Under the pieces are notes generated by a model that was not told the origin of the DNA, did no database searches, and saw only the letters and a list, made by a program, of their open reading frames with translations. Shown in pieces: positions 1,847-58,521 of a DNA stretch of 64,000 bases. Source of the DNA: a virus (Duplodnaviria > Heunggongvirae > Uroviricota > Caudoviricetes). Both the position numbers and the translations under genes were made by a program. Positions within the stretch are counted from its first letter, which is position 1, and each line of letters begins with the position of its first letter. The DNA is taken from IMG/VR virus record IMGVR_UViG_3300028832_000098, positions 81,241-145,240 of that record. The stretch is one strand, 5' to 3'.

Positions 1847-2551
1847 TTCATAAATCCAATGATAGCCAGATTTATCAAGTATGAATGCTATGTTCAAAAC
1901 GGTATTCAAAGCACAGTATTCTATCTCTGACTCTTCAGGCTTGTTGCCGAATAAATGTGGAAGCATCTCATCGGTATTGACGATTTTAACTGTAGAACCG
2001 AAATAATCATCCTGTATGCTGTAGTCATTATTCGCAAATTCGTCATAATGAGTTATTTCCATAAGCTCGTCGGCATTCTCCTCTTCATCGCATCTATACG
2101 CGAATTCATAGTTACCAAGCTCTACACCATTCTTAGAACTCTCATTGATAAACTGGCTGTAAGTAAGTAGCTTTGAGCTACCCTCGGTAAAAAGCCTGTC
2201 ATATACGACTTTCACCTTTTCAAGTTCGTCGACAGTAAACTTGAAGATGATATTGACGTACATCTCATCTTTCGTAACATCAACTTGCTCTTTATAATCT
2301 TGCAGAGCAAATACTCCGAATATACTCTGAGCGGCATTATACGCGTCAGACTTGATTTGCTTCAAATCATAATATTCCCGTTGAGGGTCTTCGTGATAAG
2401 ACAAAGTAATCGTCAGGACATCTGACTTGAAGCTGTATGTTTTCTTCGTATAGTAACCAACGATATTCTCAAGGCCTATCGCATCAGATACGACCTTACT
2501 AAGCTCGTCGAGAATATCTTTCATATTTCTGTCATTTATTTTCATAATCAT
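1832..2551 (-). CDS. hypothetical protein
   Basis: 239-aa ORF with no recognisable motifs; its 3' end overlaps the tnpB stop. Confidence 0.4.
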   Translation of the reverse strand: MIMKINDRNMKDILDELSKVVSDAIGLENIVGYYTKKTYSFKSDVLTITLSYHEDPQREYYDLKQIKSDAYNAAQSIFGVFALQDYKEQVDVTKDEMYVNIIFKFTVDELEKVKVVYDRLFTEGSSKLLTYSQFINESSKNGVELGNYEFAYRCDEEENADELMEITHYDEFANNDYSIQDDYFGSTVKIVNTDEMLPHLFGNKPEESEIEYCALNTVLNIAFILDKSGYHWIYELLTN

Positions 2552-3243
2552 AGTTGTTGTTTTAAAATGTAATTAACGGCATCTTTAATAACTTTGCTGG
2601 ATTCATCATACAAATAATCAGTATCATAAAATCCGCCAGTAACAGCATGTACTTCGATATTATAGGCATACTCAGTTTTGGAGAATATGAGAACCCCATT
2701 ATATCTTCCGTTATATGTAATAAGAATCGAGTCTGTCTTATATATCTTAGCTTCATACTTGGCTCTGCCTATATTAAACATTTCAACAAATCTACTGACG
2801 ATATTCAGATATTCAGGCAGCAAATCCTTGATTTCAGGCATTGACTTCATACTTGATTTTTTCTTCTTGTCTTCATCTATGACATTCTGAAGCCATTCAA
2901 GCAATATCTTATACATCTCGTCAGACATCAGTCTTAGTTTGCTTTTATCGGCTACATTTATAATTGTCGTTACGTACTGCAAGCCGTTTTCAAGACGTAT
3001 CATCGCATATATCGGATGCCAATCTTGTTCAGGGTATAACATTACAGACACAACTTTATCGACAGGCTCCAAAAGATTTTTGTCCTTCAGCATTGTCTGC
3101 AGTTCCTCGACCTCTTTTGTTATGACAGAACCATAGGAATCACTTCCGTATTCATCCATCATATTTTCAAGGCTGCTGTCATATTCTTTACGTATGTCTT
3201 TTCCTTCTTTAAGGAACTGATTATATGTCTTTAATTTTTTCAT
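2548..3243 (-). CDS. hypothetical protein with CTS-like N-terminus (MKKLKTYNQFLKEG)
   Basis: 231-aa ORF. The N-terminal peptide matches the family motif M-x-K-L-K-T-[FY]-x-x-F-[IL]-x-E. A conserved leader ACATAAAATTTTTAATGAT lies directly upstream of the ATG. Confidence 0.5.
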   Translation of the reverse strand: MKKLKTYNQFLKEGKDIRKEYDSSLENMMDEYGSDSYGSVITKEVEELQTMLKDKNLLEPVDKVVSVMLYPEQDWHPIYAMIRLENGLQYVTTIINVADKSKLRLMSDEMYKILLEWLQNVIDEDKKKKSSMKSMPEIKDLLPEYLNIVSRFVEMFNIGRAKYEAKIYKTDSILITYNGRYNGVLIFSKTEYAYNIEVHAVTGGFYDTDYLYDESSKVIKDAVNYILKQQL

Positions 3244-3261: not shown

Positions 3262-5169
3262 TTATGCTTCTCCGTATGTTTTCACCTCAACACCAAGAGC
3301 GGCTGCTTTCTTCATTTTTCCGGATGTCGAAGACATATCGTCTGTAAACAGGATTTTACATTGCTTCCAGTCTGATGTCTCTATATATTCAGGATGCGCC
3401 GCAAGGAAAGCTGCCTTGGTAACATATCCGAATTCTTTCGGACTTCCTGTCATAATCACAGGTATCGCCGTCGACGCAGCGGCTGCTTCCGGAGCCATAT
3501 TAACTTTGAACAAATTCGCATACCCAATAATAGTCTGGTATTCCTGAGAATTCTCATCAAGAAGCCATCTCTTGACTTCACCAGGCACGCCTATGAGATG
3601 ATTTGACTTGTCGCCCTTGATAAACTTGGCACAGACATCGGCAGCTACCTTGCCGCACAGACGGAACTGCAGGGCAAGTATGATTTCATTAAGCGTCAGA
3701 GTCTTACGCCTTTCAGTAAGGGCATTTACGATATTCATTATCGATGTCCCTGTTCCGAAACGTTCCTTCATAAAAGCGATTGATTCATCTTTCATAAAGT
3801 CAAGGACATTCTCGATTTTTACATCCTCGCTTGTAAAGAACTCAGGCATAATCTTACGTATCGTCGCCTCTTTGAAATTTCTGATGTTTATCGCCTCAGC
3901 GCCTGCTATTACCTTTATGACAACTTTTTCTTCAGCAGACAAGTCAATCATAAGATGAGGTCCTTTAACGGTCACATTCTCGGTAGGAGCCATATTGTCG
4001 CCTCCGTCTCTTACGATTTCATACACAAAAGGAATTATATCGCCGGCAAGCGAAATCTTAATGATAGAACCAACTCCGACGTTATTGTCCTTAACATATC
4101 CGTAGTTATGCAATGACGCCTTGTTGATGTTCTTTCCGTCCATCTTTATCGTCTTGAACACAGCCTTCGGGAAAAGTTCTCCTGTCTTTCCAACATTCCA
4201 TTCTATCTCCGTGATTTCTGTCTCGAGGATACTTGGTTTGTATTTGATTGCGACGCAGTCGCTCGGACGCTGAACATCTTCCGTCTTGCGGTATTTCACT
4301 TCTGGTTTCAACACGAAGCCGTCAAGAGGGAATTTGTAATCCTTACGAACTTTCTCCATTTCTTCGTAAATCCTCGCGAATTCCATAGGACTGAGTTCTG
4401 ATTTCTTAAAGGTAAGCACATTGTATGCGCATATGTCATAGCCAGGAACCGTATTATAGTCAACCCATTGATATGAGCCTGACGGAGATACAAGCCTGAA
4501 GTCATACACAACTATTGACAAATCTTTCCTTATATCAAGCTGTTCCTGTTTTCCGTCCCATTTCTGACCGAACATGCCAGCAACGAATGCCCTTGTATTC
4601 GCGAATTTATCCTGATAGCCTGCGTTAAAGTCATTAAAGCTTATAAGAGCTTCTCCCCTTACTACGAGCTTCTTGCCTTTCTGCAGGAATTCCTTGTAAG
4701 GTATTTCGTCTACATAAGGACTCAGCCAGTGGCTTACATCCGTACCGTATTCACCATCGCCTCTTGTCGATATTCCTTCAACATTTCCTTCGTCATCGAA
4801 CACCACCTCAAAAGAACATCCGTCGAATTTCGGAGTTACCTCAATGATTCCATCGTCCGGAACATTTTGGAAATACTTGTTAAGGGTATCGATATATGAG
4901 TCAAAATGGGTTTGGCCGTCTGAACCTTCTTTTATCTGTATTTTCGAAAGGCTTCCCATTTTTATCGGATGCTTTACGGTATAATTATCAGAATGATGTG
5001 TACCTATATAGCCCTGATTTTCAAGACCAAGCTTTCTTTCGAGCTCATCAAATTCAGCGTCGCCCATAATGGGGTTGCCATTATAGTATGCGTCTTTCGC
5101 CTTATTGTACAGTTCAAGGTCCTCTTCCCTTGATTCATAAAATTGTTTGAATGTCTTTAAGTGTTCCAT
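3262..5169 (-). CDS. ligA: NAD-dependent DNA ligase (LigA-like) with CTS-like N-terminus (MEHLKTFKQFYES)
   Basis: Adenylation motif KFDGCS (KxDG), TRGDGEYGTDVS (compare LigA TRGDGTTGEDIT), and an N-terminal LigA-like AYYNGNPIMGDAEFDELERKL. The ORF track begins at an upstream TTG; the ATG at 5169 is the likelier start. Confidence 0.8.
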   Translation of the reverse strand: MEHLKTFKQFYESREEDLELYNKAKDAYYNGNPIMGDAEFDELERKLGLENQGYIGTHHSDNYTVKHPIKMGSLSKIQIKEGSDGQTHFDSYIDTLNKYFQNVPDDGIIEVTPKFDGCSFEVVFDDEGNVEGISTRGDGEYGTDVSHWLSPYVDEIPYKEFLQKGKKLVVRGEALISFNDFNAGYQDKFANTRAFVAGMFGQKWDGKQEQLDIRKDLSIVVYDFRLVSPSGSYQWVDYNTVPGYDICAYNVLTFKKSELSPMEFARIYEEMEKVRKDYKFPLDGFVLKPEVKYRKTEDVQRPSDCVAIKYKPSILETEITEIEWNVGKTGELFPKAVFKTIKMDGKNINKASLHNYGYVKDNNVGVGSIIKISLAGDIIPFVYEIVRDGGDNMAPTENVTVKGPHLMIDLSAEEKVVIKVIAGAEAINIRNFKEATIRKIMPEFFTSEDVKIENVLDFMKDESIAFMKERFGTGTSIMNIVNALTERRKTLTLNEIILALQFRLCGKVAADVCAKFIKGDKSNHLIGVPGEVKRWLLDENSQEYQTIIGYANLFKVNMAPEAAAASTAIPVIMTGSPKEFGYVTKAAFLAAHPEYIETSDWKQCKILFTDDMSSTSGKMKKAAALGVEVKTYGEA

Positions 5170-5214: not shown

Positions 5215-5688
5215 TTATTTTTTACAATGATTCTTTACAAAGGTCGCAAATTTTTCTAAGTCATAGTAACGTTTCTGATATATTCCGACAGCACCTACCT
5301 CGTATGTTACATAGACATCTTTGTCTGGAGTAGCGATTCCTGTCAGTTTCTCAGATTGTCTTAACGATGTCTTACTTACGACAGCATAAGTGCTTCGATA
5401 TGAAGTCCATAGACCGAGATATTTATCTATAAGCTCAATCTGTTCGTCGCTGTAACCTTCTTTTCTCAGTCTGACTTTATCCCAAGAAGATACGTGGTAG
5501 TCTTCGAAACCCCAAGCTATTTGAGGTGCTCTAAATTCGCGCTTGTATAATTCTTCACCATTCGGTACGAATATATATCCTCGTTCGCGTTTTCTACTAT
5601 CTTTTTTGACAACATAATCATTGATTTCGTTATCCCAGCCAGAAATAGCTTCATTGATAAAACTTTTGAAAGTCTTTAATTTTTCCAT
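5215..5688 (-). CDS. hypothetical protein with CTS-like N-terminus (MEKLKTFKSFINEA)
   Basis: Start trimmed to the ATG at 5688. The first 14 codons are nearly identical at the DNA level to those of 6892..7740. Confidence 0.5.
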   Translation of the reverse strand: MEKLKTFKSFINEAISGWDNEINDYVVKKDSRKRERGYIFVPNGEELYKREFRAPQIAWGFEDYHVSSWDKVRLRKEGYSDEQIELIDKYLGLWTSYRSTYAVVSKTSLRQSEKLTGIATPDKDVYVTYEVGAVGIYQKRYYDLEKFATFVKNHCKK

Positions 5689-5689
5689 A

Positions 5690-6160
5690 TTATATTTCAG
5701 TTTCGGCACCAAGCCAGTTTGACATCGTTATACGGTTCTTAACGGCAAGAGCTGCTATCCTCGTATGATACTTTTTGTTAATAAATTCGGTTATCGCTGT
5801 AAGTAAGGTATTGTCATTCATCATTTTTTTCATGACCTCTCTTTCGGCATTCGTCCTCGAACCAGACAGTTCAGAACTATAAAAGCTTTCATCTTTAAGC
5901 CTTGCCCTTGCGTCTATGACTATAACGCCATCAGATTTTCTTGAACCTATCCAAATAATTAAACGAGCCTTATCTGTGTCTACTGTATATTTTGAAAGGT
6001 CAAACAAGTATTCAGTATTATTCAGCTTACGCATCTTCTCATCATATTCCTCAACAGATACCTTCCATTTAGGTTCCCATTCAATGATGAGGTTCGTCAA
6101 GTCGTCAAGACTTACGGACTCTTTTAAGAACTTGCTATATGTCAGCAATCCCTTACTCAT
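5690..6160 (-). CDS. hypothetical protein with CTS-like N-terminus (MSKGLLTYSKFLKES)
   Basis: 156-aa ORF tightly packed in the same operon. Confidence 0.45.
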   Translation of the reverse strand: MSKGLLTYSKFLKESVSLDDLTNLIIEWEPKWKVSVEEYDEKMRKLNNTEYLFDLSKYTVDTDKARLIIWIGSRKSDGVIVIDARARLKDESFYSSELSGSRTNAEREVMKKMMNDNTLLTAITEFINKKYHTRIAALAVKNRITMSNWLGAETEI

Positions 6161-6165: not shown

Positions 6166-6741
6166 CTACAGTTTTACATAGATATGATACTTGCCTACAG
6201 TATGGTTGTCATACTGCTGGTATATCGCAAGCATATCATCATTATACTCTATCTTCATGAAGCCTTCGATTGCTTCTCCTTCTATGGTCTCGGAGTAATC
6301 GTAAATGACATGTTTCGCGATACCATTCATAAGGTCGACTGTCGCCATGCCGCCCCAATGCGTATTTTTAGATGAATATAGTTTCGTGTTTATCATCGAA
6401 CCTTGCCCAATTCTCTTCAGGAAAGTATAATCACGAACGTTTTTCTTCTCAACCCATTTATCTATAGCCTGAATTATTTGTATATCAGTTTCAATCTTGG
6501 ATATTTCTTTTAATCTAAGACCTTTATACTTGTCGGATGTCTTAGATACAGCATATAAATCTTCAAGTGTTCTTTCTTCCCCTTGAAATGGCTTTTCAAA
6601 GAAAGACTCATAAATGGAATCGCTTATTACACTTGTATCAGCTTTCAAGAATCTTCCAGCATCATCTGATTCAGCAATTACCTGATTATAAGTCTTTAAG
6701 ACAAATCCTTTATTTTCAGAAATTTCTTTAATTTTTTCCAT
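6166..6741 (-). CDS. hypothetical protein with CTS-like motif at residues 14-25 (LKTYNQVIAES)
   Basis: 191-aa ORF, preceded by the TTGTTTTTTATATAAAAGCTTAAAAGATT leader. Confidence 0.45.
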   Translation of the reverse strand: MEKIKEISENKGFVLKTYNQVIAESDDAGRFLKADTSVISDSIYESFFEKPFQGEERTLEDLYAVSKTSDKYKGLRLKEISKIETDIQIIQAIDKWVEKKNVRDYTFLKRIGQGSMINTKLYSSKNTHWGGMATVDLMNGIAKHVIYDYSETIEGEAIEGFMKIEYNDDMLAIYQQYDNHTVGKYHIYVKL

Positions 6742-6891
6742 AATCTTTTAAGCTTTTATATAAAAAACAATATCTACAATCTATTTATGGTTTTCCCGGT
6801 TATTTATATTCAGATTCTATGCGAAGCTACTCGATAAAAAGAAAGTGTCAAAGAATTTCACTCTGACGTTCTCTTTTCATATTGTCTTACT

Positions 6892-7740
6892 TTATTGTTT
6901 TATATCAGGTTTATATTCCTGCTTGATTGGACAATTAACGAACATATCCCTGCATATTACTTCTTTCGAAACATTCCAATTTGAAATATCTTGGTTGAAA
7001 GATTCAGTATAATGAAACATAGCTTCCATATCTTCTACATTTGAAACATCCCAGTTTCCAATTGGCTGATTAAAACATTTTGCAAAACTAAACATGCTTC
7101 TCATATTTTTTACATTTGAGACATCCCAGTTTTCAATTGGTTGATTGAACTTCTCTGCTCTATGGAACATAAAAGGCATATAATAGGCATTTGAAATATT
7201 CCAGTTTCCAATTGGCTGATTGAAGCTTTTTGCAGCACTAAACATACTTCTCATAATTTTGACATTTGAGACATCCCAGTTTTCAATAGATTGGTTGAAC
7301 TTTTCTGCAGCACTAAACATACTTCCCATATCCTCTACATTTGATACATTCCAGTTTCCAATAGGTTGATTGAAACTTTTTGCAGACATAAACATCATTC
7401 CCATATCTTTTACATTTGAAACCTCCCAGTTTTCAATAGATTGATTGAACTTTTCTGCACTACTGAACATTCTTCGCATGTTCGTCACATTACTTGTATC
7501 CCATTGTGATATATCACCATTAAAACTTCTGGCAAATGCAAATAAATGGCTCATATCAGTAATCCTTGATGTGTCAATATCATTAAAGTCACCTTCAAAA
7601 CCTCTCTCCTCTATAAGAGCTTCCATAAGCAATTTCAATTCATCTCTATCTTCAGGATAGTACTTTCCATTATTTTTTCTGAAAGCATTCAAATCAATAC
7701 TTTCTTTGATGAAGCTTTTGAATGTCTTTAATTTTTCCAT
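6892..7740 (-). CDS. DUF285-type (Mycoplasma/Bacteroidota surface 26-residue repeat) protein with CTS-like N-terminus (MEKLKTFKSFIKES)
   Basis: About 8 tandem repeats of FNQPIxNW[DN]VSNVxxMxxMFxxAxxFNQ; preceded by the TTGTTTTTTATATAAAAGC motif. Confidence 0.6.
   Translation of the reverse strand: MEKLKTFKSFIKESIDLNAFRKNNGKYYPEDRDELKLLMEALIEERGFEGDFNDIDTSRITDMSHLFAFARSFNGDISQWDTSNVTNMRRMFSSAEKFNQSIENWEVSNVKDMGMMFMSAKSFNQPIGNWNVSNVEDMGSMFSAAEKFNQSIENWDVSNVKIMRSMFSAAKSFNQPIGNWNISNAYYMPFMFHRAEKFNQPIENWDVSNVKNMRSMFSFAKCFNQPIGNWDVSNVEDMEAMFHYTESFNQDISNWNVSKEVICRDMFVNCPIKQEYKPDIKQ
6930..7578. repeat. Coding tandem repeats (~78 bp units) encoding DUF285 repeats
   Basis: Visible periodic repetition of ...cccagttttcaat[ag]g[ac]ttg[ag]ttgaa... 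units. Confidence 0.7.
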
Positions 7741-7794
7741 ATCTTTTAAGCTTTTATATAAAAAACAATATCTACAATTTATAGTTTTATCAGT

Positions 7795-15479: not shown

Positions 15480-15524
15480 AACTGCAATTTTGTTTTTATA
15501 TAAAAAACAACGTTTTACCAGAAA

Positions 15525-16339: not shown

Positions 16340-16403
16340 TTTTGTTTTGTTTTTAGTTGTTTGTACTTGTTTGTATATAAAAAACAACATTTTACAAGAA
16401 ACC

Positions 16404-16466: not shown

Positions 16467-18164
16467 TTACACAAGTTCGATTGATGGGCTAAATGCCATA
16501 TCGAAACGCAAGTATTGCAAATCTGGATAGTGACCAGCAGCAAGAAGTGCGAAACGAGATTTCATTGCACCAGCGTATGCGAATGTCGCAGTTGCTGTCG
16601 TAGTTACTTTCTTAGCCATAATGTATGGTAAGAAAATCAAACCTGGGTCATTAGGTTTAGTGATACGACCAACCAAAACGCCTGTATAGTTTACAGGAAG
16701 GTTCGGGTCTTGGTACAATGTAATGTTGCTTACCTGTCCAATTGGATTAGGAGCATCAGCTACAGATTGAACGTTGTTAGGCAAAGTGATTTGAGTAAGA
16801 CCTGCTACAGATTGTACTGCAGTTACGAACTGAGTAGAACCGATAGCGAAGAATTTACCACCTGACAAACGAGAATCGTGAGAGATGATGTTAGCAGCAT
16901 ACAACAATTTACGCATTACACGTGCTTGAAGTGTCAACGAAGTTTCACCACCGTTGTCAACAACTACTTGTTTGTAATCTTTGTAAGCAGCAGGAATGTC
17001 TTCGTCAGCATCTGCAACTGATTTGAAGTAAGTGTTCAATACTTCGCCTCTGTCTTCAAGACGGTCAGCATGTTTGCCAGCCAATTCCCACATCTTAGTT
17101 AAGATGTACTTGTTAGTAGATTGAGACAATTCGTTAAGAGCATCACCTTCGATTTGAGCGATGATGTCTTGACCGTCAGCCTGTGCATCTTCGATTTGTT
17201 CCCAAGTAGCTGAGAAACCAACTTGGTAAGTTCTTACTTTGTAATCGAAAGAAGTACGTTTAGCACCCAAGAAGTTAACTGTAGTAGCTTCTCCTTCTTC
17301 ACGTTCGAATGGTTCTACACCGAAATTGTTGTCGTAAGGATTCTTTGAACCAGTTTTTTCTACTGAGTTTTCATAGAAGTCACGACCTGTGAATGCAGTG
17401 ATGTGATTTTCTTTCGTATTTACTTGACCGAATACGAAGATACCTTCGAATGCTTCTGCAAGAGTTTGAGCGCCATTGAAACGACGTGCATTGAATTCAC
17501 CCGGTTTAGCGTCTTTTCTTTCAACTAAGAAGATTGGTTTACCAGAGATGAAGCCAAGTTCAACGAATGTCAATTTGAAATCACCTTGTTCAATAACAGG
17601 AGCTTCAGAACCTTCAGCTTCGATAACTTTCTTCAATAATTCTGCACCTTCTTCAGAAGCTTCAACAACTTCAACAAGCAATGGGTCAGCAACTGCATTT
17701 GTAAATTTGTAGCTTACATTACCATCTTTGTCGTAAGTACGCAAGTCACCATTGATACGGCCACCTTCGTAAACAGTATCGTAGAAACGATATTGACCTT
17801 GAGGAGCTGATACCGGTACAACTGCCAACAAGTCAAGAGCGATTGTTTGAGCAGCTGCTTGCATTGCGATAGCTACACTTGAAGCGATTGCATCTGCTGA
17901 ACCGTTACGTACACCAGAGAAACCATTTTCACCACCATTAGGGAATTGAATTGCGCCAGCGCCTTGCATAGTCATTGACGGATTCAATGTTGGTCCCCAG
18001 AAAGCAGATTCCAAAATTGGTTTCATTTTATCGTCGTTATCTTGGATAGCGCAAACTTTAGACATCCAAGCAACTTTTACAGGGTCTTTTATTCCGGTTG
18101 ATTCTTCAATCACCTTGCCCCAATCCTGAAGGGCTTTTACACTATTGATTTCCATTTCTATCAA
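16467..18164 (-). CDS. Major capsid protein, T4 gp23-like (HK97 fold)
   Basis: ...AIASSVAIAMQAAAQTIALDLLAVVPVSAPQGQYRFYDTVY... aligns with T4 gp23 ...NLIAFDICGVQPMNSPTGQVFALRAVY.... Length 565 aa; followed by a terminator; next to the protease-scaffold gene. Confidence 0.8.
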   Translation of the reverse strand: MIEMEINSVKALQDWGKVIEESTGIKDPVKVAWMSKVCAIQDNDDKMKPILESAFWGPTLNPSMTMQGAGAIQFPNGGENGFSGVRNGSADAIASSVAIAMQAAAQTIALDLLAVVPVSAPQGQYRFYDTVYEGGRINGDLRTYDKDGNVSYKFTNAVADPLLVEVVEASEEGAELLKKVIEAEGSEAPVIEQGDFKLTFVELGFISGKPIFLVERKDAKPGEFNARRFNGAQTLAEAFEGIFVFGQVNTKENHITAFTGRDFYENSVEKTGSKNPYDNNFGVEPFEREEGEATTVNFLGAKRTSFDYKVRTYQVGFSATWEQIEDAQADGQDIIAQIEGDALNELSQSTNKYILTKMWELAGKHADRLEDRGEVLNTYFKSVADADEDIPAAYKDYKQVVVDNGGETSLTLQARVMRKLLYAANIISHDSRLSGGKFFAIGSTQFVTAVQSVAGLTQITLPNNVQSVADAPNPIGQVSNITLYQDPNLPVNYTGVLVGRITKPNDPGLIFLPYIMAKKVTTTATATFAYAGAMKSRFALLAAGHYPDLQYLRFDMAFSPSIELV

Positions 18165-18272: not shown

Positions 18273-20228
18273 TTAGAATCCGTATTTCAAACGTCTTTTT
18301 ATCTCTTCAGCGACAGAAGCCTGTACTTTTCCTTCATTACGGACGTTCCTGTTCTGATTCCTCAAAGATTCCGAAAGATATTTTTTCGTATCTTGACTGC
18401 TTACGCTTTCCGTAAGATTCCTTGTCTTCCAGAAACGAACAGCTGCGTCTACACTGCCGATAATATACAATTTGCTTTCGTTAAGGATTTCTTTCTTACG
18501 GTTGTCAGAAAGAGCGCTCCAAGATTCTTTCAAGTAGTCAGGCATAAATTGAATAAGTTTTTCTGCCTCTGTAACAGATTTCTGTTCATTTATGGCTTGA
18601 CTCTGTTGTTCCATCTTATTGTTTGTATCCTTAATAGACGAAGCAATAGAATTTACAGATTCTACAAGGTTTTGAAGTTGAGTGTCTTCAGTACTGCGCT
18701 GTTTACCTTCAACCATCATCTTGATGTCTTCTATAGATTTGTCAGCAGCTTCAACTATGCTCTGCATTTTACCGCTAAGCTTTTTGTTGATTTTAGTCTG
18801 AGACTCAGAGATATATTCTGTATACTTCTGAAGCATCTCAATTTTTTCATTAAGCTGCTTGTTCTTCTGAAGAACCTTATCGAAACTTTCAGAAAGATAT
18901 TTTGTATATCCTTCAAGCATTTCAGCCGTTACCGTGTTCTTTTCAAGATGTTCAGACAAATATGCTGTATAACGTTCCATATCCTTTGATGTGACAACGT
19001 CTTTATTCATCTTTTTAAGATGTTCTGACAGATAGCCTGTATATTTTTCCATAGCATCGCTTGTAACTACGTTTTTATTCATAGCTGCAAGATGTTCAGA
19101 AAGATATGCAGTATACTTTTCTACGTCTTCGCTTGTAACGACACCTTTTTTCAATTTATTCAAGTATTCAGACAAATACTTAGTGTATTTATCCATGTCG
19201 CGTCTTGTTACGACATCTTGAGGGTTGCCTAACTTCTGTTCCATATAATAATTATTAAAGTTGATTCCACTTACAAAGAAATATGTCTTTCCGTCTTGTA
19301 CGGTTGGACCGTCAGTAATGTTCGCACCAATATTGTTCAGACATTGTTCAACAGCGTTATTGATTATGCCTGTGAATTCACCTGTTACATTCTTTCCGAA
19401 TTCAACCTCAACATGGTCGTTTACGAAATTAACTATTGCTGTATCAGAATTTGATTCAACAGAACAGATACCCATATCGCTGTCGACTGTTATGTCCATT
19501 TTGCCAGGATTCATACCGAGCGCCTTACGGAATTCACCTATAATAGACTTGCCGTCTATTTTCGGTTTTTCATTTCCGCTTTCAGGTTCTTTCTGACCTT
19601 CATCCTGCAATTCGTACAAATCGGCGCCATCGAAAGACTCGAGTATTACACGGCTCTTCATTTTGGCATTCTTCTGTGAACTCAAAGCATTAACGGCATT
19701 TATAAGAGCGTCAGAACCCGCGCCCTTGCTTTCGTTAACTGCATGGAGAACTGCATTCTCAAAACCTGGTTCAGCAACAAGGTCATAAGTTATAAGTTCT
19801 TCGACAACGACATGATTGTCAGGTGTCAAAGTACCGATAGCCCTTGAAGATATATGAAGAGGCACTTTATTTTCTATAAGAGTCTTCGCGATTCTTCCTG
19901 AAGGAGTATTTAATAATTTGATACGACCCTTTATAGAATCTGTCTTTTGGTCATAGCTTAGACTTTCAACTATATGAGAAACGTTCTGATAAGACACATA
20001 CCTCATATTAGCGGGATGTTCAAGCTCACCGAGAAGGTCATGATTCTTAATCTTTTCCGTAAGAGCACCAAGCTTCTCAAGGAAATTCTTAGAGTCATAT
20101 ATCCTGTTATTACGATTCTTCACGTTAAACGTCGTGAAGCATCCTTCAAGAACAATATCGCCGCCGTCCGCAGAACTTGAGCAGACACCGTCACTTAAAC
20201 TCTCAACGATATATTTCTTATTTTCCAT
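18273..20228 (-). CDS. Prohead core protease (T4 gp21-like) fused to a scaffold-like coiled-coil domain with tandem repeats
   Basis: N-terminal LGELEHPANM...TPSGRIAKTLIENKVPLHISSRAIG matches gp21 LGEHD...TPAGQLVESLLKEGVLLEASSRAWA. The C-terminal ~350 aa are coiled-coil with 6 repeats of VVTS[ED]D[VM]EKYT[AG]YLSEHL...MNK. Confidence 0.75.
   Translation of the reverse strand: MENKKYIVESLSDGVCSSSADGGDIVLEGCFTTFNVKNRNNRIYDSKNFLEKLGALTEKIKNHDLLGELEHPANMRYVSYQNVSHIVESLSYDQKTDSIKGRIKLLNTPSGRIAKTLIENKVPLHISSRAIGTLTPDNHVVVEELITYDLVAEPGFENAVLHAVNESKGAGSDALINAVNALSSQKNAKMKSRVILESFDGADLYELQDEGQKEPESGNEKPKIDGKSIIGEFRKALGMNPGKMDITVDSDMGICSVESNSDTAIVNFVNDHVEVEFGKNVTGEFTGIINNAVEQCLNNIGANITDGPTVQDGKTYFFVSGINFNNYYMEQKLGNPQDVVTRRDMDKYTKYLSEYLNKLKKGVVTSEDVEKYTAYLSEHLAAMNKNVVTSDAMEKYTGYLSEHLKKMNKDVVTSKDMERYTAYLSEHLEKNTVTAEMLEGYTKYLSESFDKVLQKNKQLNEKIEMLQKYTEYISESQTKINKKLSGKMQSIVEAADKSIEDIKMMVEGKQRSTEDTQLQNLVESVNSIASSIKDTNNKMEQQSQAINEQKSVTEAEKLIQFMPDYLKESWSALSDNRKKEILNESKLYIIGSVDAAVRFWKTRNLTESVSSQDTKKYLSESLRNQNRNVRNEGKVQASVAEEIKRRLKYGF
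18820..19195. repeat. Coding tandem repeats (~72 bp) encoding the YTxYLSEHL scaffold repeats
   Basis: Repeated ...gtaacgacatc...ttttccat...cttgt... units visible in the DNA. Confidence 0.7.
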
Positions 20229-23255: not shown

Positions 23256-23263
23256 TATTTATA
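23256..23263 (-). promoter_or_regulatory. T4-type late promoter -10 element TATAAATA (minus strand) upstream of the sheath gene
   Basis: The exact octamer sits in the conserved context AAAATTATAAATAGAAT, shared with 24768..24775. Confidence 0.45.
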
Positions 23264-33059: not shown

Positions 33060-33083
33060 CTTGTTTTGTTTACCGTTTTGTTT

Positions 33084-36233: not shown

Positions 36234-37937
36234 TTAAACTGCAGGTTCACCGCCTTCTGGAGCGCCGCCTGCTTCAGGAGCTCCGCCGCTTATGTCCATG
36301 CTGCCTCCCATATCGCCTCCGCCGCCCATGTCCATGCCGCCTCCCATATCCATTCCTCCGCCACCCATATCGCCACCTCCCATATCCATTCCACCACCGC
36401 CCATATCACCTCCCATAGAAGGTTGTTGCTCAGTAGCAGCCTTTTCTGCTTCTTCTTTACGTTTCTTAGCTTTCTCCTTCTTAATCCTCTCATTTTCTTC
36501 AAGCTCTGCAGGCGTGAACAACGAGAATTTCTTCATTAAGAAGTCAGGGTCGAAATATGGTGTTTGGTTTCCTTGTTCGTCAGTTACCTGTATCGAATTA
36601 AGAATACCTGAAATAGCATTGATATTCTGCTGTATGATTGTAAGCTTCTTAATTTGAAGATAGACTGAGTCTGACTGGTATACGAGGTGCAAAGATGCAA
36701 GGAAAGAAATGTCATCCTTTATTTCGTTGTCAAGACAAATCTGAATATAGATAGGCTTGATAAAAAGCATCTGGTAAATATTCCGAAGCCTTGCTATAAA
36801 CCTGCTGAACCTGATTTCTTCCCTATGTATTCCTTCGACGTTCATCGTATATTGGGCGCCAGCCTGTCTGTCAAACCTTGCAAGAGGTACTTTCGTTATA
36901 TCGTGGAACTTATCGGCGAAATACGTCAACGGCTGTATATTCGACAAGTCTGGTCCACCGTTATTGCTCAAGACCGAAACTTCAGGCTTGCTGCCTTCAG
37001 TCATGGCGAAGAACATCTGCTTATAGAACGGCAACATCGGATGTCCGTTGGTCTTTATCTCGCCTGTCGACCAGTTGAAGTCAACTTGCTCAGCCTGGTC
37101 TGCTGCAACTTGCGCGAGTCGTTGCTTTCCCTTTTGTGGCGACACCGCTCCGACAGGTACGACATAATTCATTTTCAAAGAGGAGTTGACGACAGAGAAT
37201 ATAATTCTCGTCGATTCCATAATCCTCAATGTATTGAATGAACGTATAAGCCTTGAAACATAGCTGAGGTCGTTATCTTCATCTGAATAAGATATGATAA
37301 CAATCTCTTGCTCAGTCAACGTAAGGTTTATGACATTCCCCGTCGTTAAGTCATTAGTGCTGACCTTATACAGTATCTTGCCGTCTTTGTCACATATCTT
37401 TTCGACATTCGCTGGGTCAAGCTCTACAAAGTCAATTATGTTTTTCTGTTTTTCGTCATATATTATACGGTATGCAAGCTTACCATCGACAATCCATCTC
37501 CTGAAAAGCCTCCAGACATCATCTGTATTCATAAGACCGTAGAGATACCTGAACTTCATAAAGTATTCAGGCAGTTTCTCCTTCACTTTTTCAGAAATCT
37601 TGTCAGCCGTTGATTCTATATATGCGAAATCACGGTCTTGCTCTGTCGAACAAATACTCTCGTCACAAACAATATCAAGTATTTTGTCTATGTCGTCTTC
37701 TGCGGCGTATTTCCTACAAGTCTCCCTCTGTACTGAATAACTTGCAGGCTGCGAGCCTCCAATGCCTTCAGCGCGGTGCCAGCTGTTCTGCGGAACAGAT
37801 ATTACCTGCGAAAGCGATGTCATATTGTCAGGCGAATAGGCCCTACCGGTAAACCTGACATTCGCGAGCTTCTTACGCAATGTCACTTGGCCTCCGTACA
37901 TTCCGGTACCTATACCTCTGTTAATAAATCCTGCCAT
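36234..37937 (-). CDS. Portal protein (T4 gp20-like) with a C-terminal Gly/Met/Asp low-complexity tail
   Basis: [23 protein letters not shown] matches gp20 [44 protein letters not shown] matches gp20 [24 protein letters not shown]. C-terminus ([11 protein letters not shown])n. Confidence 0.7.
   Translation of the reverse strand: [567 protein letters not shown]
36300..36425. repeat. Coding tandem repeats (ccatatcca[ct]tcc[tg]ccgcc[ac]cc units) encoding the GGGMDMGGG tail of the portal
   Basis: Visible 12-15 bp periodicity. Confidence 0.7.
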
Positions 37938-44634: not shown

Positions 44635-45396
44635 ATGGAAAAGTTAAAGACTTACAAGCAGTTTATCAAAGAGTCAAGTGACTTCGATTCGCAAGAAACG
44701 TATACCGGTCATTTTGTTGTTTATGACAATAAGGGAGATATTATAAGCGACTTTAAGGATACCTGCATTGCTTCAAGTGAAGAAGAGGCAGAAACAATTC
44801 TTCTTGGAAGGAACGGTACATTTTCTAAGGGACAGAACAGAGTCGTAAAGCTTTCCCGTATTGTAAAGGAAAGTCCGTTTTTGGATGAAGGCAACAGCAT
44901 TGATGAACTTGAATTTGCGAAGACCATAGGCAATAAGAATGTATATGAAAACCTTGATTCATTGTTTAACAAGTTGAGCGACCCTAAAACTCCTTCTATA
45001 ATCAGGAAAACAATCGTACCGGATATAAGTGAGTTCAGGACAGAGATACTTGATTTCGCAAGGGAAAACAATATATCTGCTGACAATATGGATTGGCTTA
45101 TCGCTGAAATAAAAGTACGCAGCCGGAAGACAGGTGTTCCTACTGAGCTGTATGTCGCTTGCTTCAAGTCTTTGCTTTCTGAGCTTGAAGACTTCAATAT
45201 AGCTGCACTTGAAAGCCTTGTCCCTGAAGATTCAATCTTCTTGACGGTAAATCCTGACAAGGAAACAGTAGATAAAATGTATGACATTATGAAGGCATTC
45301 GTAAGCGGTACATTCTCAAAAATAAACCTCATAGGCTTGCTACAAGGCAATATGGCAGTTGCTATGAAGCAATCTGGTGACCTAAAAGGTATATAA
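44635..45396 (+). CDS. hypothetical protein with CTS-like N-terminus (MEKLKTYKQFIKES)
   Basis: 253-aa ORF followed by a strong terminator. Confidence 0.5.
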   Translation: MEKLKTYKQFIKESSDFDSQETYTGHFVVYDNKGDIISDFKDTCIASSEEEAETILLGRNGTFSKGQNRVVKLSRIVKESPFLDEGNSIDELEFAKTIGNKNVYENLDSLFNKLSDPKTPSIIRKTIVPDISEFRTEILDFARENNISADNMDWLIAEIKVRSRKTGVPTELYVACFKSLLSELEDFNIAALESLVPEDSIFLTVNPDKETVDKMYDIMKAFVSGTFSKINLIGLLQGNMAVAMKQSGDLKGI

Positions 45397-45497: not shown

Positions 45498-45953
45498 ATG
45501 AAGGCATTGTTGACATTTAAAGAATTTCTTGAAAGCTTGCTCTATGTTAAGGGCAGGTTTGAATTTCCGAGTAATTACGCCAATTCTGAAAGGACTTATG
45601 TTTTTGTTATAACAGATAAAGAGGACGGCAGGCGGTATTTGGACATACCTTATATCCAATATTCGCACAAGAACCAAAATGTGAAATACCTTATAGAGAA
45701 CATATTCGAACCTGTTACTGACTATAATATCGAATATTTCCTTGATGAAGTTAATGCGGAGTTCGCTGAAGAGAAATCTGATTCAAAATACTTAGTGACA
45801 TCGTATAAGGTAAGGCACAGTGAACTCGAGACGATAACAGGAGAGCTTCCGGATATGGACAGACTTTCTGAAAGGTTCGTTTTGAAATCACATACCGGTT
45901 TCGACTGTACTCCTTTTTATGAATTATTGTCAAAGTATGATTTAATACCTTAA
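45498..45953 (+). CDS. hypothetical protein with CTS-like N-terminus (MKALLTFKEFLESL)
   Basis: 151-aa ORF. Confidence 0.45.
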   Translation: MKALLTFKEFLESLLYVKGRFEFPSNYANSERTYVFVITDKEDGRRYLDIPYIQYSHKNQNVKYLIENIFEPVTDYNIEYFLDEVNAEFAEEKSDSKYLVTSYKVRHSELETITGELPDMDRLSERFVLKSHTGFDCTPFYELLSKYDLIP

Positions 45954-46745: not shown

Positions 46746-47117
46746 ATGGGAAACTTAAAGACTTTTAGTGAATATAGAAGAGACTATGTTACTGGAATGG
46801 AAGACCTTATGCAGCAACTGCAAGAGGCTTTGAACTCATCGTATATCAAGTTTGATATGGATTTAGATACTGAGTTTGGAATGGCGACAGTAAAAGAAGG
46901 TTCAAGCACCGCTATCATATCTTTTGCCGGCCAGGAGGCAAGTATCAATTTCCAAGATACATCTGGTACTATCAACGACGACTTTAAGGATGAGGTCAGT
47001 TCTGCCGTTGAGAAATGTCTTAATAACCTTAATATCGATTATGACGGTCCGAAGGATATTGAAGACAACACGAAATTCTTTGTGCGTGGCGTGAACTTCG
47101 ATGAGTATTATAAATAA
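46746..47117 (+). CDS. Small protein homologous to the middle domain of the protease-scaffold protein; weak CTS-like N-terminus (MGNLKTFSEY)
   Basis: SSAVEKCLNNLNIDYDGP...NTKFFVRGVNFDEYYK versus protease-scaffold NNAVEQCLNNIGANITDGP...KTYFFVSGINFNNYYM. Confidence 0.45.
   Translation: MGNLKTFSEYRRDYVTGMEDLMQQLQEALNSSYIKFDMDLDTEFGMATVKEGSSTAIISFAGQEASINFQDTSGTINDDFKDEVSSAVEKCLNNLNIDYDGPKDIEDNTKFFVRGVNFDEYYK
47109..47116 (+). promoter_or_regulatory. T4-type late promoter TATAAATA
   Basis: 19 nt upstream of the ATG at 47135. Related CATAAATA motifs precede the starts at 47912, 52087, 59216 and 60721. Confidence 0.4.
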
Positions 47118-58108: not shown

Positions 58109-58521
58109 TGGAACCATTAAAAACATATTCTGATTTTATAGCGGAAGGCTTACACGATATAGATATTCCTGAGATTCTTTATCATGCGACATTGAAGTCG
58201 AGGTTGAAATCTATCAAAGAGAAAGGACTCGGAGCCAGCAGTAGGAAGATGTGGAGCTTTTCATCGCCGGGCGTGGTATGCCTGACTGATGACGAGAACT
58301 GTGCTTTTGATTTTGTATATGAGAGTGAATATGCAGAAGAGCACGATGTTGATGAAGAAAATATAATTGTCTTGAAAATAAATACAAATAGCCTTGACAA
58401 GAATCTTTTCGTGAAGGATGAGAACTTTAACGCGGACGAAGGTTTTTCGATATGCTACAAAGGAATCATTCCTTTTTCATGTGTTGAGGCTGTTCTGACA
58501 TATAATGACATTGCCCAATAA
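58108..58521 (+). CDS. Small protein with CTS-like N-terminus MEPLKTYSDFIAEG (closest to T4 IPIII MKTYQEFIAE); possible minimal ART-like R/S-x-S/E-x-E arrangement
   Basis: N-terminus seen directly; the ART idea rests only on the spaced KSRL...SFSSPG...ESEYAEE. Confidence 0.45.
   Translation: MEPLKTYSDFIAEGLHDIDIPEILYHATLKSRLKSIKEKGLGASSRKMWSFSSPGVVCLTDDENCAFDFVYESEYAEEHDVDEENIIVLKINTNSLDKNLFVKDENFNADEGFSICYKGIIPFSCVEAVLTYNDIAQ

What the first reader, a model, noticed from the sequence alone, without database searches (positions are those of the whole stretch)
3262..5169. NAD-dependent DNA ligase carrying the capsid-targeting-like peptide
The protein has an unambiguous LigA-like adenylation domain (KFDG, TRGDGEYGTDVS) but begins with MEHLKTFKQFYES, the same peptide found on the putative internal proteins. 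T4-like phages normally encode an unpackaged ATP-dependent ligase (gp30). A co-injected NAD-ligase could, speculatively, repair nicks made by host nucleases on entering DNA. Otherwise the peptide has a function other than head targeting.
Basis: partly seen in the sequence, partly recalled or inferred. Interest (0 to 1): 0.6.

Follow-up and report, generated by a model that had tools for sequence, protein, structure and literature searches.

The report
Capsid-targeting tag on a phage ligase
A large uncultivated phage with T4-type head genes encodes an intact NAD-dependent DNA ligase that begins with the short peptide phage T4 uses to load proteins into its head, so the ligase is probably packed into the virus particle and injected with the DNA, which has not been reported for any phage ligase.

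Summary
Window 3262-5169 (minus strand) encodes a 635-aa LigA-type ligase. All catalytic residues are conserved. It begins MEHLKTFKQFYES.

The first 12-13 residues are an add-on. More than 100 homologues (44% identity or less) start directly at ligase domain Ia. The six closest relatives (53-76% identity) all carry a leader, and four of them end it in F-[IL]-x-E-[SA].

The same leader opens at least nine other, mutually unrelated ORFs in the window. Chance predicts about 0.0005 such matches.

The leader matches the T4 capsid targeting sequence MKTYQEFIAE at the residues that direct targeting and cleavage in T4. The window also encodes a gp21-family prohead protease with both catalytic residues, and a gp23-type capsid protein. 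The protease's scaffold-like tail repeats the leader's core motif (aromatic-x-x-aromatic-[LI]-x-E) six times.

In related contigs the ligase leader co-varies with the leader of the neighbouring gene. In one contig that neighbour is an ADP-ribosyltransferase, a counterpart of the packaged T4 enzyme Alt.

My best reading is that the ligase enters the prohead through this tag, is trimmed by the protease and is co-injected. Packaging, cleavage and any function after injection are inferred, not shown. This would be a new cargo for a known mechanism.

The parts
3262..5169 (-). NAD-dependent DNA ligase ORF, 635 aa including the leader
   Evidence: ORF listing and sequence. Pfam PF01653 and PF03120. 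The same 635-aa product is called in public assemblies. The AF2 model (mean pLDDT 85.6) aligns over about 620 columns with full-length LigA structures 2owo, 1dgs and 1v9p.
5134..5169 (-). Leader peptide MEHLKTFKQFYE (residues 1-12), with the putative cleavage between E12 and S13
   Evidence: Matches the window's leader family. Absent from more than 100 homologues that start at domain Ia. pLDDT is below 50 for residues 1-5 and 7-11. Aligns with the T4 CTS MKTYQEFIAE at K, T, F/Y, F and E.
4990..5133 (-). Ligase domain Ia, the NMN-binding region (residues 13-60), containing AYYNG and DAEFD
   Evidence: Y28, Y29, D37 and D41 are invariant in 28 homologues. Motif positions.
4306..4980 (-). Nucleotidyltransferase (adenylation) domain, residues 64-288. 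Contains K114 of KFDG, R136 of TRGDG, E173, R193 and K288. K309 (motif V) lies just downstream at residues 307-311.
   Evidence: Pfam. Invariant columns. Motif coordinates.
4006..4224 (-). OB-fold domain, residues 316-388
   Evidence: PF03120, 66.6 bits.
3277..3936 (-). C-terminal helical region resembling HhH (residues 412-553) and a BRCT-like alpha/beta domain (residues 569-631). There is no Cys4 zinc finger.
   Evidence: AF2 secondary structure. Full-length Foldseek alignments to LigA. The only cysteines are at 118, 247, 305, 505, 513 and 604.
2548..3243 (-). Leader-bearing ORF with no family match (231 aa, MKKLKTYNQFLKEG), immediately downstream of the ligase
   Evidence: No Pfam or PHROG hit.
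5215..5688 (-). Leader-bearing ORF with no family match (157 aa, MEKLKTFKSFINEA), immediately upstream of the ligase
5690..6160 (-). Leader-bearing ORF with no family match (156 aa, MSKGLLTYSKFLKES)
6166..6741 (-). Leader-bearing ORF with no family match (191 aa). The leader LKTYNQVIAES sits at residues 15-25.
6892..7740 (-). Leader-bearing DUF285 repeat protein (282 aa, MEKLKTFKSFIKES)
   Evidence: PF03382, E=1.5e-97. Leader.
44635..45396 (+). Leader-bearing ORF (253 aa, MEKLKTYKQFIKES)
45498..45953 (+). Leader-bearing ORF (151 aa, MKALLTFKEFLES). It has the same shortened leader variant as the ligase.
46746..47117 (+). ORF with a looser leader (123 aa, MGNLKTFSEY). It is a paralogue of residues 229-328 of the protease/scaffold ORF.
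   Evidence: blastp 32% identity, E=1e-14.
58108..58521 (+). Leader-bearing ORF (137 aa, MEPLKTYSDFIAEG). This is the closest match to the T4 CTS. It has a weak Tpt1/KptA-like hit.
60721..61980 (+). ORF with a looser leader (419 aa, MDREHLMTFNEFRES)
18273..20228 (-). Prohead protease of the T4 gp21 family (residues 1 to about 200) fused to a scaffold-like tail of about 450 aa. The tail carries six YTxY[LI]SE repeats and eight phi-[ILVY]-x-E-[SAG] sites.
   Evidence: PF03420, 45 bits. PHROG 207. blastp to T4 gp21: 30% identity, E=1e-12, with H71 and S127 aligned to T4 H85 and S140. Repeats. Site enrichment: 8 observed against 1.26 expected, P=5e-5.
16467..18155 (-). Major capsid protein of the T4 gp23 family, with a cleavage-like VIEE|S at residues 15-19
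   Evidence: PF07068. PHROG 138. Motif.
36234..37937 (-). Portal protein
   Evidence: PHROG 213, E=1e-61.
6782..6808 (-). Two [TC]ATAAATA motifs resembling T4 late promoters, 48 and 67 nt upstream of the first gene of the tightly spaced minus-strand run 6741 to 1832 that contains the ligase
   Evidence: In the whole window, 20 of 33 motif copies lie 20-60 nt upstream of a same-strand start, including those of the sheath, tube and portal genes.

Best explanation
The gene encodes a catalytically intact LigA-type ligase that has acquired, at its extreme N-terminus, the phage's own version of the T4 capsid targeting sequence. The proposed pathway has four steps. (1) The amphipathic leader presents hydrophobic residues L4, F7, F10 and Y11 on one face and docks onto the scaffolding core of the assembling prohead. 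It does so by mimicking the aromatic-x-x-aromatic-[LI]-x-E unit that is repeated six times in the scaffold-like tail of the protease. (2) The capsid shell closes around the core with the ligase inside. (3) The gp21-type serine protease cuts after E12 and releases a mature ligase that starts at S13. That is the point where untagged homologues begin. (4) The ligase stays in the head with the DNA and is ejected into the next host cell. There it could seal nicks in the incoming genome, possibly as a pre-adenylated single-turnover enzyme. Shown here: the enzyme is intact, the leader is an add-on module, the leader family is statistically real, it resembles the T4 CTS at the functionally mapped residues, the T4-type protease and capsid genes are present, and the tag is conserved and co-varies in relatives. 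Inferred: docking, packaging, cleavage, ejection, and any role after ejection.
For: (a) The enzyme is intact. K114, D116, G117, R136, E173, R193, K288 and K309, and the domain Ia residues Y28, Y29, D37 and D41, are invariant in 28 homologues. The fold is full-length LigA.
(b) The tag is an add-on. Homologues at 44% identity or less start MDKRELYDQAKEAYYNG, and LR756500 starts MLNLKDKETLYLKAKDTYY, so S13-R14-E15 of this protein is where the others begin.
(c) The tag is retained in all six close relatives (53-76% identity). It ends FINES, FIKEA, FLAES, YLNES, KVNES or FISED while the rest of the leader drifts.
(d) The leader is a portable module. With leaders removed, the 13 leader-bearing ORFs share no similarity (every blastp E above 0.4). 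Codons at conserved positions vary synonymously and the upstream DNA is not conserved.
(e) In the T4 CTS MKTYQEFIAE, residues 4 and 7 direct targeting and residues 8 and 10 direct processing (PMC9026906). The leaders here keep an aromatic residue, F, [IL] and E at exactly those positions.
(f) The protease is gp21-family with both catalytic residues. T4 gp21 cuts after I/L-x-E (PMC12991175). Cleavage-like sites are enriched in the protease's tail (8 observed, 1.26 expected) and one lies near the capsid protein's N-terminus. The tail carries six YTxY[LI]SE repeats with the leader's spacing.
(g) Leaders co-vary within genomes. In L111 the ADP-ribosyltransferase starts MKHILSHDDYINEA and the adjacent ligase starts MKHILSRVDFIKEA. 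In L008 the ligase and its neighbour share an identical 18-aa N-terminus.
(h) The pattern ATG-xx-[LF]KT[FY]xxFIxE has 98 matches in IMG/VR. Of these, 75 open ORFs of at least 50 aa, and 69 of the 75 have no upstream in-frame Met. The tagged proteins include a cytidylyltransferase-like enzyme and a PLD-like nuclease.
(i) T4 packages and delivers large foreign enzymes such as beta-galactosidase when they carry a CTS (PMC9026906).
(j) The ligase lies in a tight same-strand gene run downstream of T4-late-like promoter motifs that also precede the sheath, tube and portal genes.
Against: There is no virion proteome or any other experimental data for this uncultivated phage.
The ligase's own leader is one residue shorter than the consensus. 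It reads F-Y-E|S, with F rather than I or L at P3. Cleavage may therefore be inefficient, although window ORF 45498-45953 has the same variant (FLE|S) and T4 gp21 cuts non-canonical xxE sites weakly.
The ligase has no late-promoter-like motif directly upstream of its own start.
In relatives the gene sits beside gp32 and NrdD, which is the usual setting for a replication enzyme. Its main job may therefore be cytoplasmic.
AF2 models the leader as a low-confidence continuation of the first domain Ia helix, which neither supports nor excludes a free tag.
The absence of internal cleavage-like sites in the ligase (0 observed, 1.23 expected) is not significant.
Confidence: 0.6

Rival explanations
1. 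The ligase is simply the phage's replicative, Okazaki-fragment-joining enzyme. The leader arrived by recombination with a neighbouring leader-bearing gene and has no selected role on this protein. Any packaging is incidental and low-level, or does not happen.
For: Leaders are visibly swapped between adjacent genes. In L008 two neighbours share an identical 18-aa N-terminus. In relatives the ligase sits beside gp32, NrdD and guanylate kinase, which is a replication and nucleotide-metabolism setting. This ligase's leader has a non-canonical cleavage site. Most homologous phage ligases work without any tag.
Against: All seven members of the clade (53-100% identity) keep a leader, and five of them, counting the window's own shortened form, keep an aromatic-plus-Glu-[SA] ending. 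Meanwhile the linker and other leader positions diverge. That pattern is not expected of a neutral appendage over this much divergence. In T4 the CTS alone is sufficient for packaging foreign proteins, so a tagged protein expressed during head assembly would be packaged whether or not that is its main purpose.
Confidence: 0.2
2. The leader family is not a head-targeting signal in this phage. It could serve another shared purpose: protease-controlled activation of pro-enzymes, targeting to another assembly or compartment, or a translation-initiation context.
For: No direct evidence of head localisation exists. One tagged protein found in IMG/VR has a PQ-loop membrane domain. A DUF285 repeat protein, a type more familiar as a surface protein, also carries the tag. 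The codons after the ATG are A-rich.
Against: The conserved positions are hydrophobic or aromatic plus Glu, and their codons vary synonymously, which points to selection at the protein level. They coincide with the four residues mapped as functional in the T4 CTS. The same core motif is repeated in the scaffold-like tail of the prohead protease. Only about 13 of 68 ORFs carry the leader, which does not fit a general translation signal. An ADP-ribosyltransferase, the counterpart of the packaged T4 enzyme Alt, carries it in relatives.
Confidence: 0.15
3. The leader is a start-codon artefact, and the real protein begins downstream.
For: the ORF listing also offers an upstream TTG start at 5181, so the start is not uniquely defined by the ORF alone.
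Against: The next Met is residue 35, inside the domain Ia stretch NPIMGDAEFD. Starting there would delete the invariant Y28 and Y29. Public gene calls agree on 635 aa. Six orthologues have their own leaders in the same place.
Confidence: 0.02

Closest known systems
[quoted passage not shown]
   Same: A peptide of 10-14 residues at the extreme N-terminus with the same core (K-T-aromatic-x-x-F-[IL]-x-E). It ends in a Glu cleavage site, sits on otherwise unrelated and fast-evolving proteins, and occurs in a genome that encodes a gp21-family protease and a gp23-family capsid protein.
   Different: The host phage is a distant relative with a contig of at least 238 kb, not a member of Straboviridae. 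The leader has three extra residues before K-T (M-x-x-L). The cargo here is a 72-kDa DNA-repair and replication enzyme rather than a small basic protein. The protease is fused to its scaffold-like region. Nothing has been shown experimentally.
T4 Alt, a packaged and injected ADP-ribosyltransferase, and engineered T4 CTS fusions (beta-galactosidase, GFP, nuclease)
   Same: These are precedents for enzymes being loaded into a T4-type head through an N-terminal propeptide, trimmed by gp21 and delivered to the next cell. Relatives of this phage tag an ADP-ribosyltransferase with the same leader, right next to the tagged ligase.
   Different: The library and papers searched here contain no report of a natural phage ligase among such cargo.
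Phage NAD-dependent DNA ligases (Lak megaphages, other jumbo phages, heterodimeric ligases of T5-like phages)
   Same: The same enzyme family and fold. The nearest named relatives are the Lak megaphage ligases at 41% identity.
   Different: These ligases lack the CTS-like leader. The Lak ligases have a different N-terminal extension of 50-100 aa, and most others start at domain Ia. This ligase also lacks the Cys4 zinc finger of bacterial LigA.
Ejection proteins of phiKZ and SPN3US with long propeptides
   Same: Many head-internal proteins are processed by a gp21-related protease after Glu, and the propeptides are inferred to target them into the prohead.
   Different: Those propeptides are mostly longer than 100 residues and are cut at A/S-x-E. 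Here the leader is 12-25 residues and the site is phi-[IL]-x-E-[SAG].
Virion-packaged DNA repair enzymes of large eukaryotic DNA viruses (for example African swine fever virus). This is from my own knowledge and was not checked here.
   Same: The idea of a virus carrying a ligase in the particle to repair its genome on entry.
   Different: An unrelated virus lineage, an ATP-dependent ligase, and no N-terminal targeting tag of this kind.

Membership tests
NAD-dependent DNA ligase (LigA) | Adenylation motif I (KxDG) with the catalytic lysine, plus nucleotidyltransferase motifs III, IV and V | tested here: met
   KFDG at 114-117, TRGDG at 135-139, VRGEA at 170-174, DGFVLK at 283-288 and AIKYK at 307-311. 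K114, D116, G117, R136, E173, K288 and K309 are invariant in 28 homologues. PF01653, 64.9 bits against a cut-off of 27.
NAD-dependent DNA ligase (LigA) | N-terminal domain Ia with the NMN-binding Tyr and Asp residues that confer NAD dependence | tested here: met
   The AYYNG...DAEFD stretch is present. Y28, Y29, D37 and D41 are invariant. Their equivalence to E. coli Y22, D32 and D36 rests on established knowledge of LigA.
NAD-dependent DNA ligase (LigA) | OB-fold domain after the adenylation domain | tested here: met
   PF03120, 66.6 bits against a cut-off of 32.9, residues 316-388.
NAD-dependent DNA ligase (LigA) | Cys4 zinc finger between the OB and HhH domains | tested here: not met
   The only cysteines are at 118, 247, 305, 505, 513 and 604, with no cluster after residue 388. 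This is a zinc-finger-less variant, as also appears to be the case in its phage homologues.
NAD-dependent DNA ligase (LigA) | C-terminal HhH and BRCT domains | tested here: inconclusive
   No Pfam hit. However, the AF2 model has a helical region at 412-553 and an alpha/beta unit at 569-631, and it aligns over 620-708 columns with full-length LigA structures.
NAD-dependent DNA ligase (LigA) | NAD-dependent nick sealing activity | not testable with these tools
   Requires an enzyme assay.
T4-type capsid targeting sequence (CTS) cargo protein | Short peptide (about 10-20 aa) at the extreme N-terminus, in front of an otherwise complete protein | tested here: met
   Residues 1-12 or 1-13 precede the point where untagged homologues start.
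T4-type capsid targeting sequence (CTS) cargo protein | Similarity to MKTYQEFIAE, with aromatic or hydrophobic residues at the targeting positions (T4 residues 4 and 7) | tested here: met
   Ligase K5-T6-F7-x-x-F10 aligns with T4 K2-T3-Y4-x-x-F7. The T4 CTS sequence comes and the functional mapping from PMC9026906.
T4-type capsid targeting sequence (CTS) cargo protein | Leader ends in the prohead protease site (I/L-x-E, cut after Glu; T4 residues 8 and 10) | tested here: inconclusive
   The ligase has F-Y-E|S, one residue short, with no I or L at P3. Four of its six orthologues and seven other window leaders have the canonical [FVY]-[IL]-x-E-[SAG]. The T4 site is given.
T4-type capsid targeting sequence (CTS) cargo protein | Same genome encodes a gp21-family prohead protease with catalytic His and Ser, and a gp23-type capsid protein | tested here: met
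   PF03420 and PF07068. H71 and S127 align with T4 gp21 H85 and S140 (catalytic residues).
T4-type capsid targeting sequence (CTS) cargo protein | Same leader on several otherwise unrelated proteins of the phage | tested here: met
   Nine other strict and four looser copies. No similarity between the proteins once leaders are trimmed.
T4-type capsid targeting sequence (CTS) cargo protein | Protein physically present in the mature head with the leader removed | not testable with these tools
   Needs virion mass spectrometry. No cultured representative was found.
phiKZ/SPN3US-type ejection protein with a long propeptide | Propeptide of about 80-130 residues, cut at A/S-x-E | tested here: not met
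   The leader is 12-13 residues and the site is phi-[IL]-x-E-[SAG]. The properties of that family come from PMC5694885.

The most novel reading that the evidence does not exclude
This clade of large phages, recovered only from metagenome assemblies, loads an active and possibly pre-adenylated NAD-dependent DNA ligase into the capsid. In relatives the same route carries an ADP-ribosyltransferase and other enzymes. The ligase is injected with the genome, where it seals nicks before any phage gene is expressed. The nicks could be made by host nicking defences or could already be present in the packaged DNA. More generally, the T4-type leader would give a sequence-only way to read out the set of injected proteins of uncultivated phages.
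Probability: 0.3. Interest if true: 0.75.

Novelty: new variant of a known kind. Interest (0 to 1): 0.6.

Why it matters
Proteins injected together with phage DNA act before any phage gene is expressed, so they are prime candidates for counter-defence. Apart from a few cultured models they can only be found by virion proteomics. This case matters for three reasons.

First, the T4 capsid targeting sequence appears to survive, in recognisable form, in very distant large phages known only from metagenome assemblies. It is also present in many other viral contigs (98 pattern matches in IMG/VR). The tag can therefore be used to predict injected cargo from sequence alone.

Second, the predicted cargo includes a complete DNA ligase. 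I found no report of that for any phage. A pre-loaded ligase would be a new way to protect or repair an incoming genome.

Third, the repeats in the protease's tail suggest how a CTS works: it imitates one unit of the scaffold. That idea can be tested directly.

If the ligase turns out not to be packaged, the finding reduces to an ordinary phage LigA with an odd N-terminus.

Tried and rejected
PHROG and Pfam searches of the small leader-bearing ORFs gave nothing beyond DUF285 and a weak Tpt1/KptA hit, so their functions stay unknown.

The cultured Bacteroidota jumbo phage pT24 has a homologous ligase (26% identity), but its N-terminus, MEKFKSMSNEALIAL, is not a convincing leader. Its homologue of an IMG/VR leader-bearing family lacks the tag. 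It therefore cannot serve as an experimental proxy.

A protein search with only the first 85 residues returned nine short fragments, none with a leader. No further tagged ligases were found.

Literature searches for a packaged phage DNA ligase or a CTS on a ligase found none. That covers the phage G multi-omics paper, the SPN3US and phiKZ papers and a 2026 jumbo-phage review.

The Lak megaphage ligases have long N-terminal extensions of a different sequence. I could not tell whether these are propeptides.

The sigma-70 promoter scan of the ligase region was no better than shuffled sequence (26 sites against 21.9), and the terminator scan was uninformative.

No tRNAs were found in the window.

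I considered a shared 5' DNA cassette of the PeSL type known from T4-like phages and rejected it, because the upstream DNA is not conserved apart from two neighbouring genes.

I could not determine whether the phage has a second ligase. Only 64 kb of the 238,631-bp contig is available.
Full report
**1. The observation**

The reported interval is exactly one ORF on the minus strand. It runs from the ATG at 5169 to the stop codon at 3262-3264 and encodes 635 aa beginning MEHLKTFKQFYES. Public gene calls on a 238,631-bp metagenomic contig and on a second assembly give the identical 635-aa product. Pfam finds the LigA adenylation domain (residues 64-288) and the LigA OB fold (residues 316-388), both well above their cut-offs.

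**2. The enzyme is intact**

I aligned the protein with 27 homologues. The catalytic lysine motif KFDG (K114, D116, G117), R136 of TRGDG, E173, R193, K288 and K309 are all invariant. So are the domain Ia residues Y28, Y29, D37 and D41, which lie in the stretch AYYNG...DAEFD. An AlphaFold2 model (mean pLDDT 85.6) aligns over 620-708 columns with full-length LigA structures such as E. coli 2owo and T. filiformis 1dgs.

The one departure from bacterial LigA is the missing Cys4 zinc finger. The only cysteines are at 118, 247, 305, 505, 513 and 604. The nearest named relatives are the ligases of Prevotella Lak megaphages (41% identity). LigA homologues occur in 1,124 phage records, mostly T5-like and jumbo phages. 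A phage NAD-dependent ligase is therefore ordinary in itself.

**3. The first 12-13 residues are an add-on**

I listed the N-termini of the 120 best homologues out of 5.8 billion proteins. Those at 44% identity or less mostly begin directly at domain Ia, for example MDKRELYDQAKEAYYNG. The uncultured phage LR756500 begins MLNLKDKETLYLKAKDTYY. The Lak ligases carry a different extension of 50-100 aa. Residues S13-R14-E15-E16-D17-L18 of the window protein line up with the first residues of the untagged enzymes.

Only the six closest relatives (53-76% identity) have a comparable leader:

| Protein | N-terminus (| marks the putative cut) |
|---|---|
| P0002 | MDTMPSFKEFINES|RQEDL |
| P0003 | MIQNFNDYNKNKITFKQVLAFDEFKVNES|RKEDL |
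| P0004 | MKHILSRVDFIKEA|RESED |
| P0005 | MMNYKEFISED... |
| P0006 | MEHILSRADFLAES|SESED |
| P0007 | MLKYLDDFESFRSGYLNES|... |

The aromatic-[IL]-x-E-[SA] ending survives in P0002, P0004, P0006 and P0007 while the other leader positions and the linker drift. P0003 and P0005 end in looser variants.

**4. The leader is a family, and it is a module**

A strict pattern hits 10 of the window's 68 ORFs, 9 of them within the first 25 residues. Shuffled proteins give a mean of 0.0005 hits. KT[YF]xxF[IL]xE occurs five times, always at residue 5, against 0.0044 expected. Looser copies open four more ORFs.

Once the leaders are trimmed, the 13 proteins share no detectable similarity (every blastp E above 0.4). 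Most have no Pfam or PHROG match. Codons at conserved positions vary synonymously: ACA/ACT, TTC/TTT, TAT/TAC, AAA/AAG, GAA/GAG, and four different Ser codons. The DNA upstream of the ATG is not conserved apart from two neighbouring genes. Selection therefore acts on the peptide, not on a DNA cassette.

**5. Relation to the T4 capsid targeting sequence**

The T4 CTS is MKTYQEFIAE. It is cut once after the final Glu, and it is sufficient to load foreign proteins into T4 heads (PMC8442874; PMC3012670). Mutational mapping placed targeting mainly at residues 4 and 7 and processing at residues 8 and 10 (PMC9026906). T4 gp21 cuts after I/L-x-E and, more weakly, after other x-x-E sites (PMC12991175).

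The window's leaders read (M-x-x-L)-K-T-[YF]-x-x-F-[IL]-x-E-[SAG]. All four mapped positions are conserved, and one leader (58108-58521, KTYSDFIAE) differs from T4 at only two unconstrained positions.

The window also encodes the rest of the T4-type head machinery:
- A gp23-family major capsid protein.
- A portal protein.
- A gp21-family protease (PF03420). Its H71 and S127 align with the T4 catalytic residues H85 and S140.

The protease ORF continues into a tail of about 450 residues. This tail holds eight phi-[ILVY]-x-E-[SAG] sites where 1.26 are expected (P=5e-5). It also holds six copies of YTxY[LI]SE, four of them on a 24-residue period. Their aromatic-x-x-aromatic-[LI]-x-E spacing is the same as the leader's. 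One looser leader-bearing ORF (46746-47117) is a paralogue of part of this tail. The capsid protein has VIEE|S at residues 15-19. Together these suggest, by inference only, that the leader imitates one scaffold repeat and so co-assembles with the core and is then cut.

**6. A caveat specific to the ligase**

The ligase's leader is one residue short of the consensus: K-T-F-K-Q-F-Y-E|S, giving F at P3 instead of I or L. The targeting positions are intact, but the processing site is non-canonical. ORF 45498-45953 has the same shortened form (FLE|S), and four of the six orthologous ligases have the canonical site. The ligase has no internal cleavage-like site, but 0 observed against 1.23 expected is not significant.

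**7. Evidence from relatives**

- In contig L111 the gene next to the ligase is an ADP-ribosyltransferase (PF03496) beginning MKHILSHDDYINEA. The ligase begins MKHILSRVDFIKEA. This is a leader variant shared by the two neighbours and distinct from the window's.
- In L008 the ligase and the next ORF share an identical 18-residue N-terminus.
- In L006 an ADP-ribosyltransferase begins MIKTFAEYIAER.
- In L004 (ligase 76% identical) three neighbours carry leaders.

This within-genome co-variation fits leaders that must all fit one common partner. The tagged ADP-ribosyltransferase parallels T4 Alt, which is packaged and injected. Beyond this clade, the DNA pattern for ATG-xx-[LF]KT[FY]xxFIxE has 98 matches in IMG/VR. 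Of these, 75 open ORFs of at least 50 aa, and 69 of the 75 have no upstream in-frame Met. The tagged proteins there include a cytidylyltransferase-like enzyme and a PLD-like nuclease. The leader is therefore widespread and is attached to enzymes.

**8. Expression context**

[TC]ATAAATA resembles the T4 late promoter; that comparison is from established knowledge. It occurs 33 times against 18.4 +/- 4 in shuffles. Twenty of the 33 copies lie 20-60 nt upstream of a same-strand start, including the sheath, tube and portal genes. The ligase has none of its own. It sits in a tightly spaced minus-strand run (6741 to 1832) whose first gene has two such motifs at 6782-6808, and no convincing terminator lies in between. 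Late co-expression with head genes is therefore plausible but not shown. In relatives the ligase lies beside gp32 and NrdD, so it may well also be the replicative ligase.

**9. Mechanism and rivals**

My best reading (confidence about 0.6) has four steps. The tag carries the ligase into the prohead core. The protease removes the tag. The mature enzyme, which starts where untagged homologues start, stays with the DNA. It is then ejected into the next cell. That large enzymes can travel this route is shown for T4 CTS fusions, including beta-galactosidase. What the ligase would do after entry, whether sealing nicks or countering nicking defences, is speculation.

The rivals are:
- A neutral, recombination-borne tag on an ordinary replicative ligase (0.2).
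- A leader family with some other shared function (0.15).
- A start-site artefact (0.02), which the invariant Y28 and Y29 upstream of the next Met argue against.

**10. Novelty**

CTS-mediated loading of diverse proteins is well known for T4. Propeptide-mediated loading is known for phiKZ-like phages. I found no report of a phage DNA ligase among such cargo, and none of CTS-type leaders in Lak-related large phages from metagenomes. I therefore rate this a new variant of a known kind. Its interest is moderate to high because it can be tested directly by virion proteomics and because the tag offers a way to predict injected proteins from sequence.

Noticed in passing
window 18273-20228 (-), repeats at about 18938-19178: The prohead protease is fused to a scaffold-like tail of about 450 aa. 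The tail contains a 72-bp (24-aa) tandem repeat carrying YTxYLSE, which has the same aromatic-x-x-aromatic-[LI]-x-E spacing as the N-terminal leaders. This may explain how such leaders dock.
   Followed up: partly
window-wide; for example 23256-23263, 24768-24775, 28528-28535, 35728-35735, 37961-37968 (-) and 47109, 47877, 52063, 63080 (+): [TC]ATAAATA resembles the T4 late promoter. It occurs 33 times against 18.4 +/- 4 in shuffles. Twenty copies sit 20-60 nt upstream of same-strand starts, mostly of structural genes.
   Followed up: partly
window 6754-6770, 7752-7768, 15494-15510, 16371-16387, 33082-33098 (all -): A second conserved upstream element, TTGTTTTTTATATAAAA, has 7 matches against 0.17 expected. 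It lies just before the starts of two leader-bearing genes and several small ORFs. It may be another promoter class.
   Followed up: partly
window 1832-2551 (-): A 239-aa ORF carries a complete leader copy (LLTYSQFINES) in its interior, at residues 128-138. It looks like a fusion of two modules or a long propeptide.
   Followed up: no
window 58108-58521 (+): A 137-aa protein has the most T4-like leader (MEPLKTYSDFIAEG). It has weak, below-cut-off hits to RNA 2'-phosphotransferase Tpt1/KptA (Pfam E=0.0016, PHROG E=0.0055). It may be another tagged enzyme.
   Followed up: partly
window 650-1846 (+) and 39158-40417 (-); also L006 12581-13837: TnpB / IS605 OrfB-like genes lie inside the phage. In relative L006 one sits close to the ligase, separated from it by a TnsA-like ORF.
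   Followed up: no
window 16467-18155 (-) residues 63-91, compared with 24779-25801 (-) residues 167-195: The capsid protein's N-terminal region shares a 29-aa segment at 69% identity (GAIQFPNGGENGFSGVRNGSADAI compared with GPIQMPSGGDNGFSGVRNGSGDAI) with an otherwise unrelated 340-aa protein.
   Followed up: no
window 45957-46739 (+), compared with 63112-63999 (+): Two otherwise different proteins share a 61-residue segment at 61% identity.
   Followed up: no
window 8820-10568 (-) and 11277-12245 (-): Two ORFs share their first 52 residues (65% identity). They lie in a cluster that may encode glycan synthesis, next to an ORF that looks like an NAD-dependent epimerase. That annotation is my reading of the sequence and was not tested.
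   Followed up: no
L111 4140-4706 and L006 2367-2972: In relatives, ADP-ribosyltransferases (PF03496) carry the same type of leader. In L111 the gene is directly upstream of the tagged ligase and its leader co-varies with the ligase's.
   Followed up: yes
L072 8942-9538; L067 1277-1873: Elsewhere in IMG/VR the leader is attached to a cytidylyltransferase-like protein with GRFMPFHNGH, possibly an NMN adenylyltransferase, and to a PLD-like nuclease with an ExoX C-terminal motif.
   Followed up: partly
L110 3949-9820: In a phage contig of about 270 kb with an untagged ligase (P0020), the ligase gene follows an NAD salvage and synthesis cluster: nicotinamidase-like, phosphoribosyltransferases, a NAMPT-like gene and NAD synthase.
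   Followed up: no
L005 6876-7418, 14189-14662, 14747-15271: A more distant phage, whose ligase is 34% identical and untagged, has its own recurring N-terminus (MKSLxE[YL][IM]xE[SA]) on several small ORFs. Related tags may therefore exist without the ligase being tagged.
   Followed up: no
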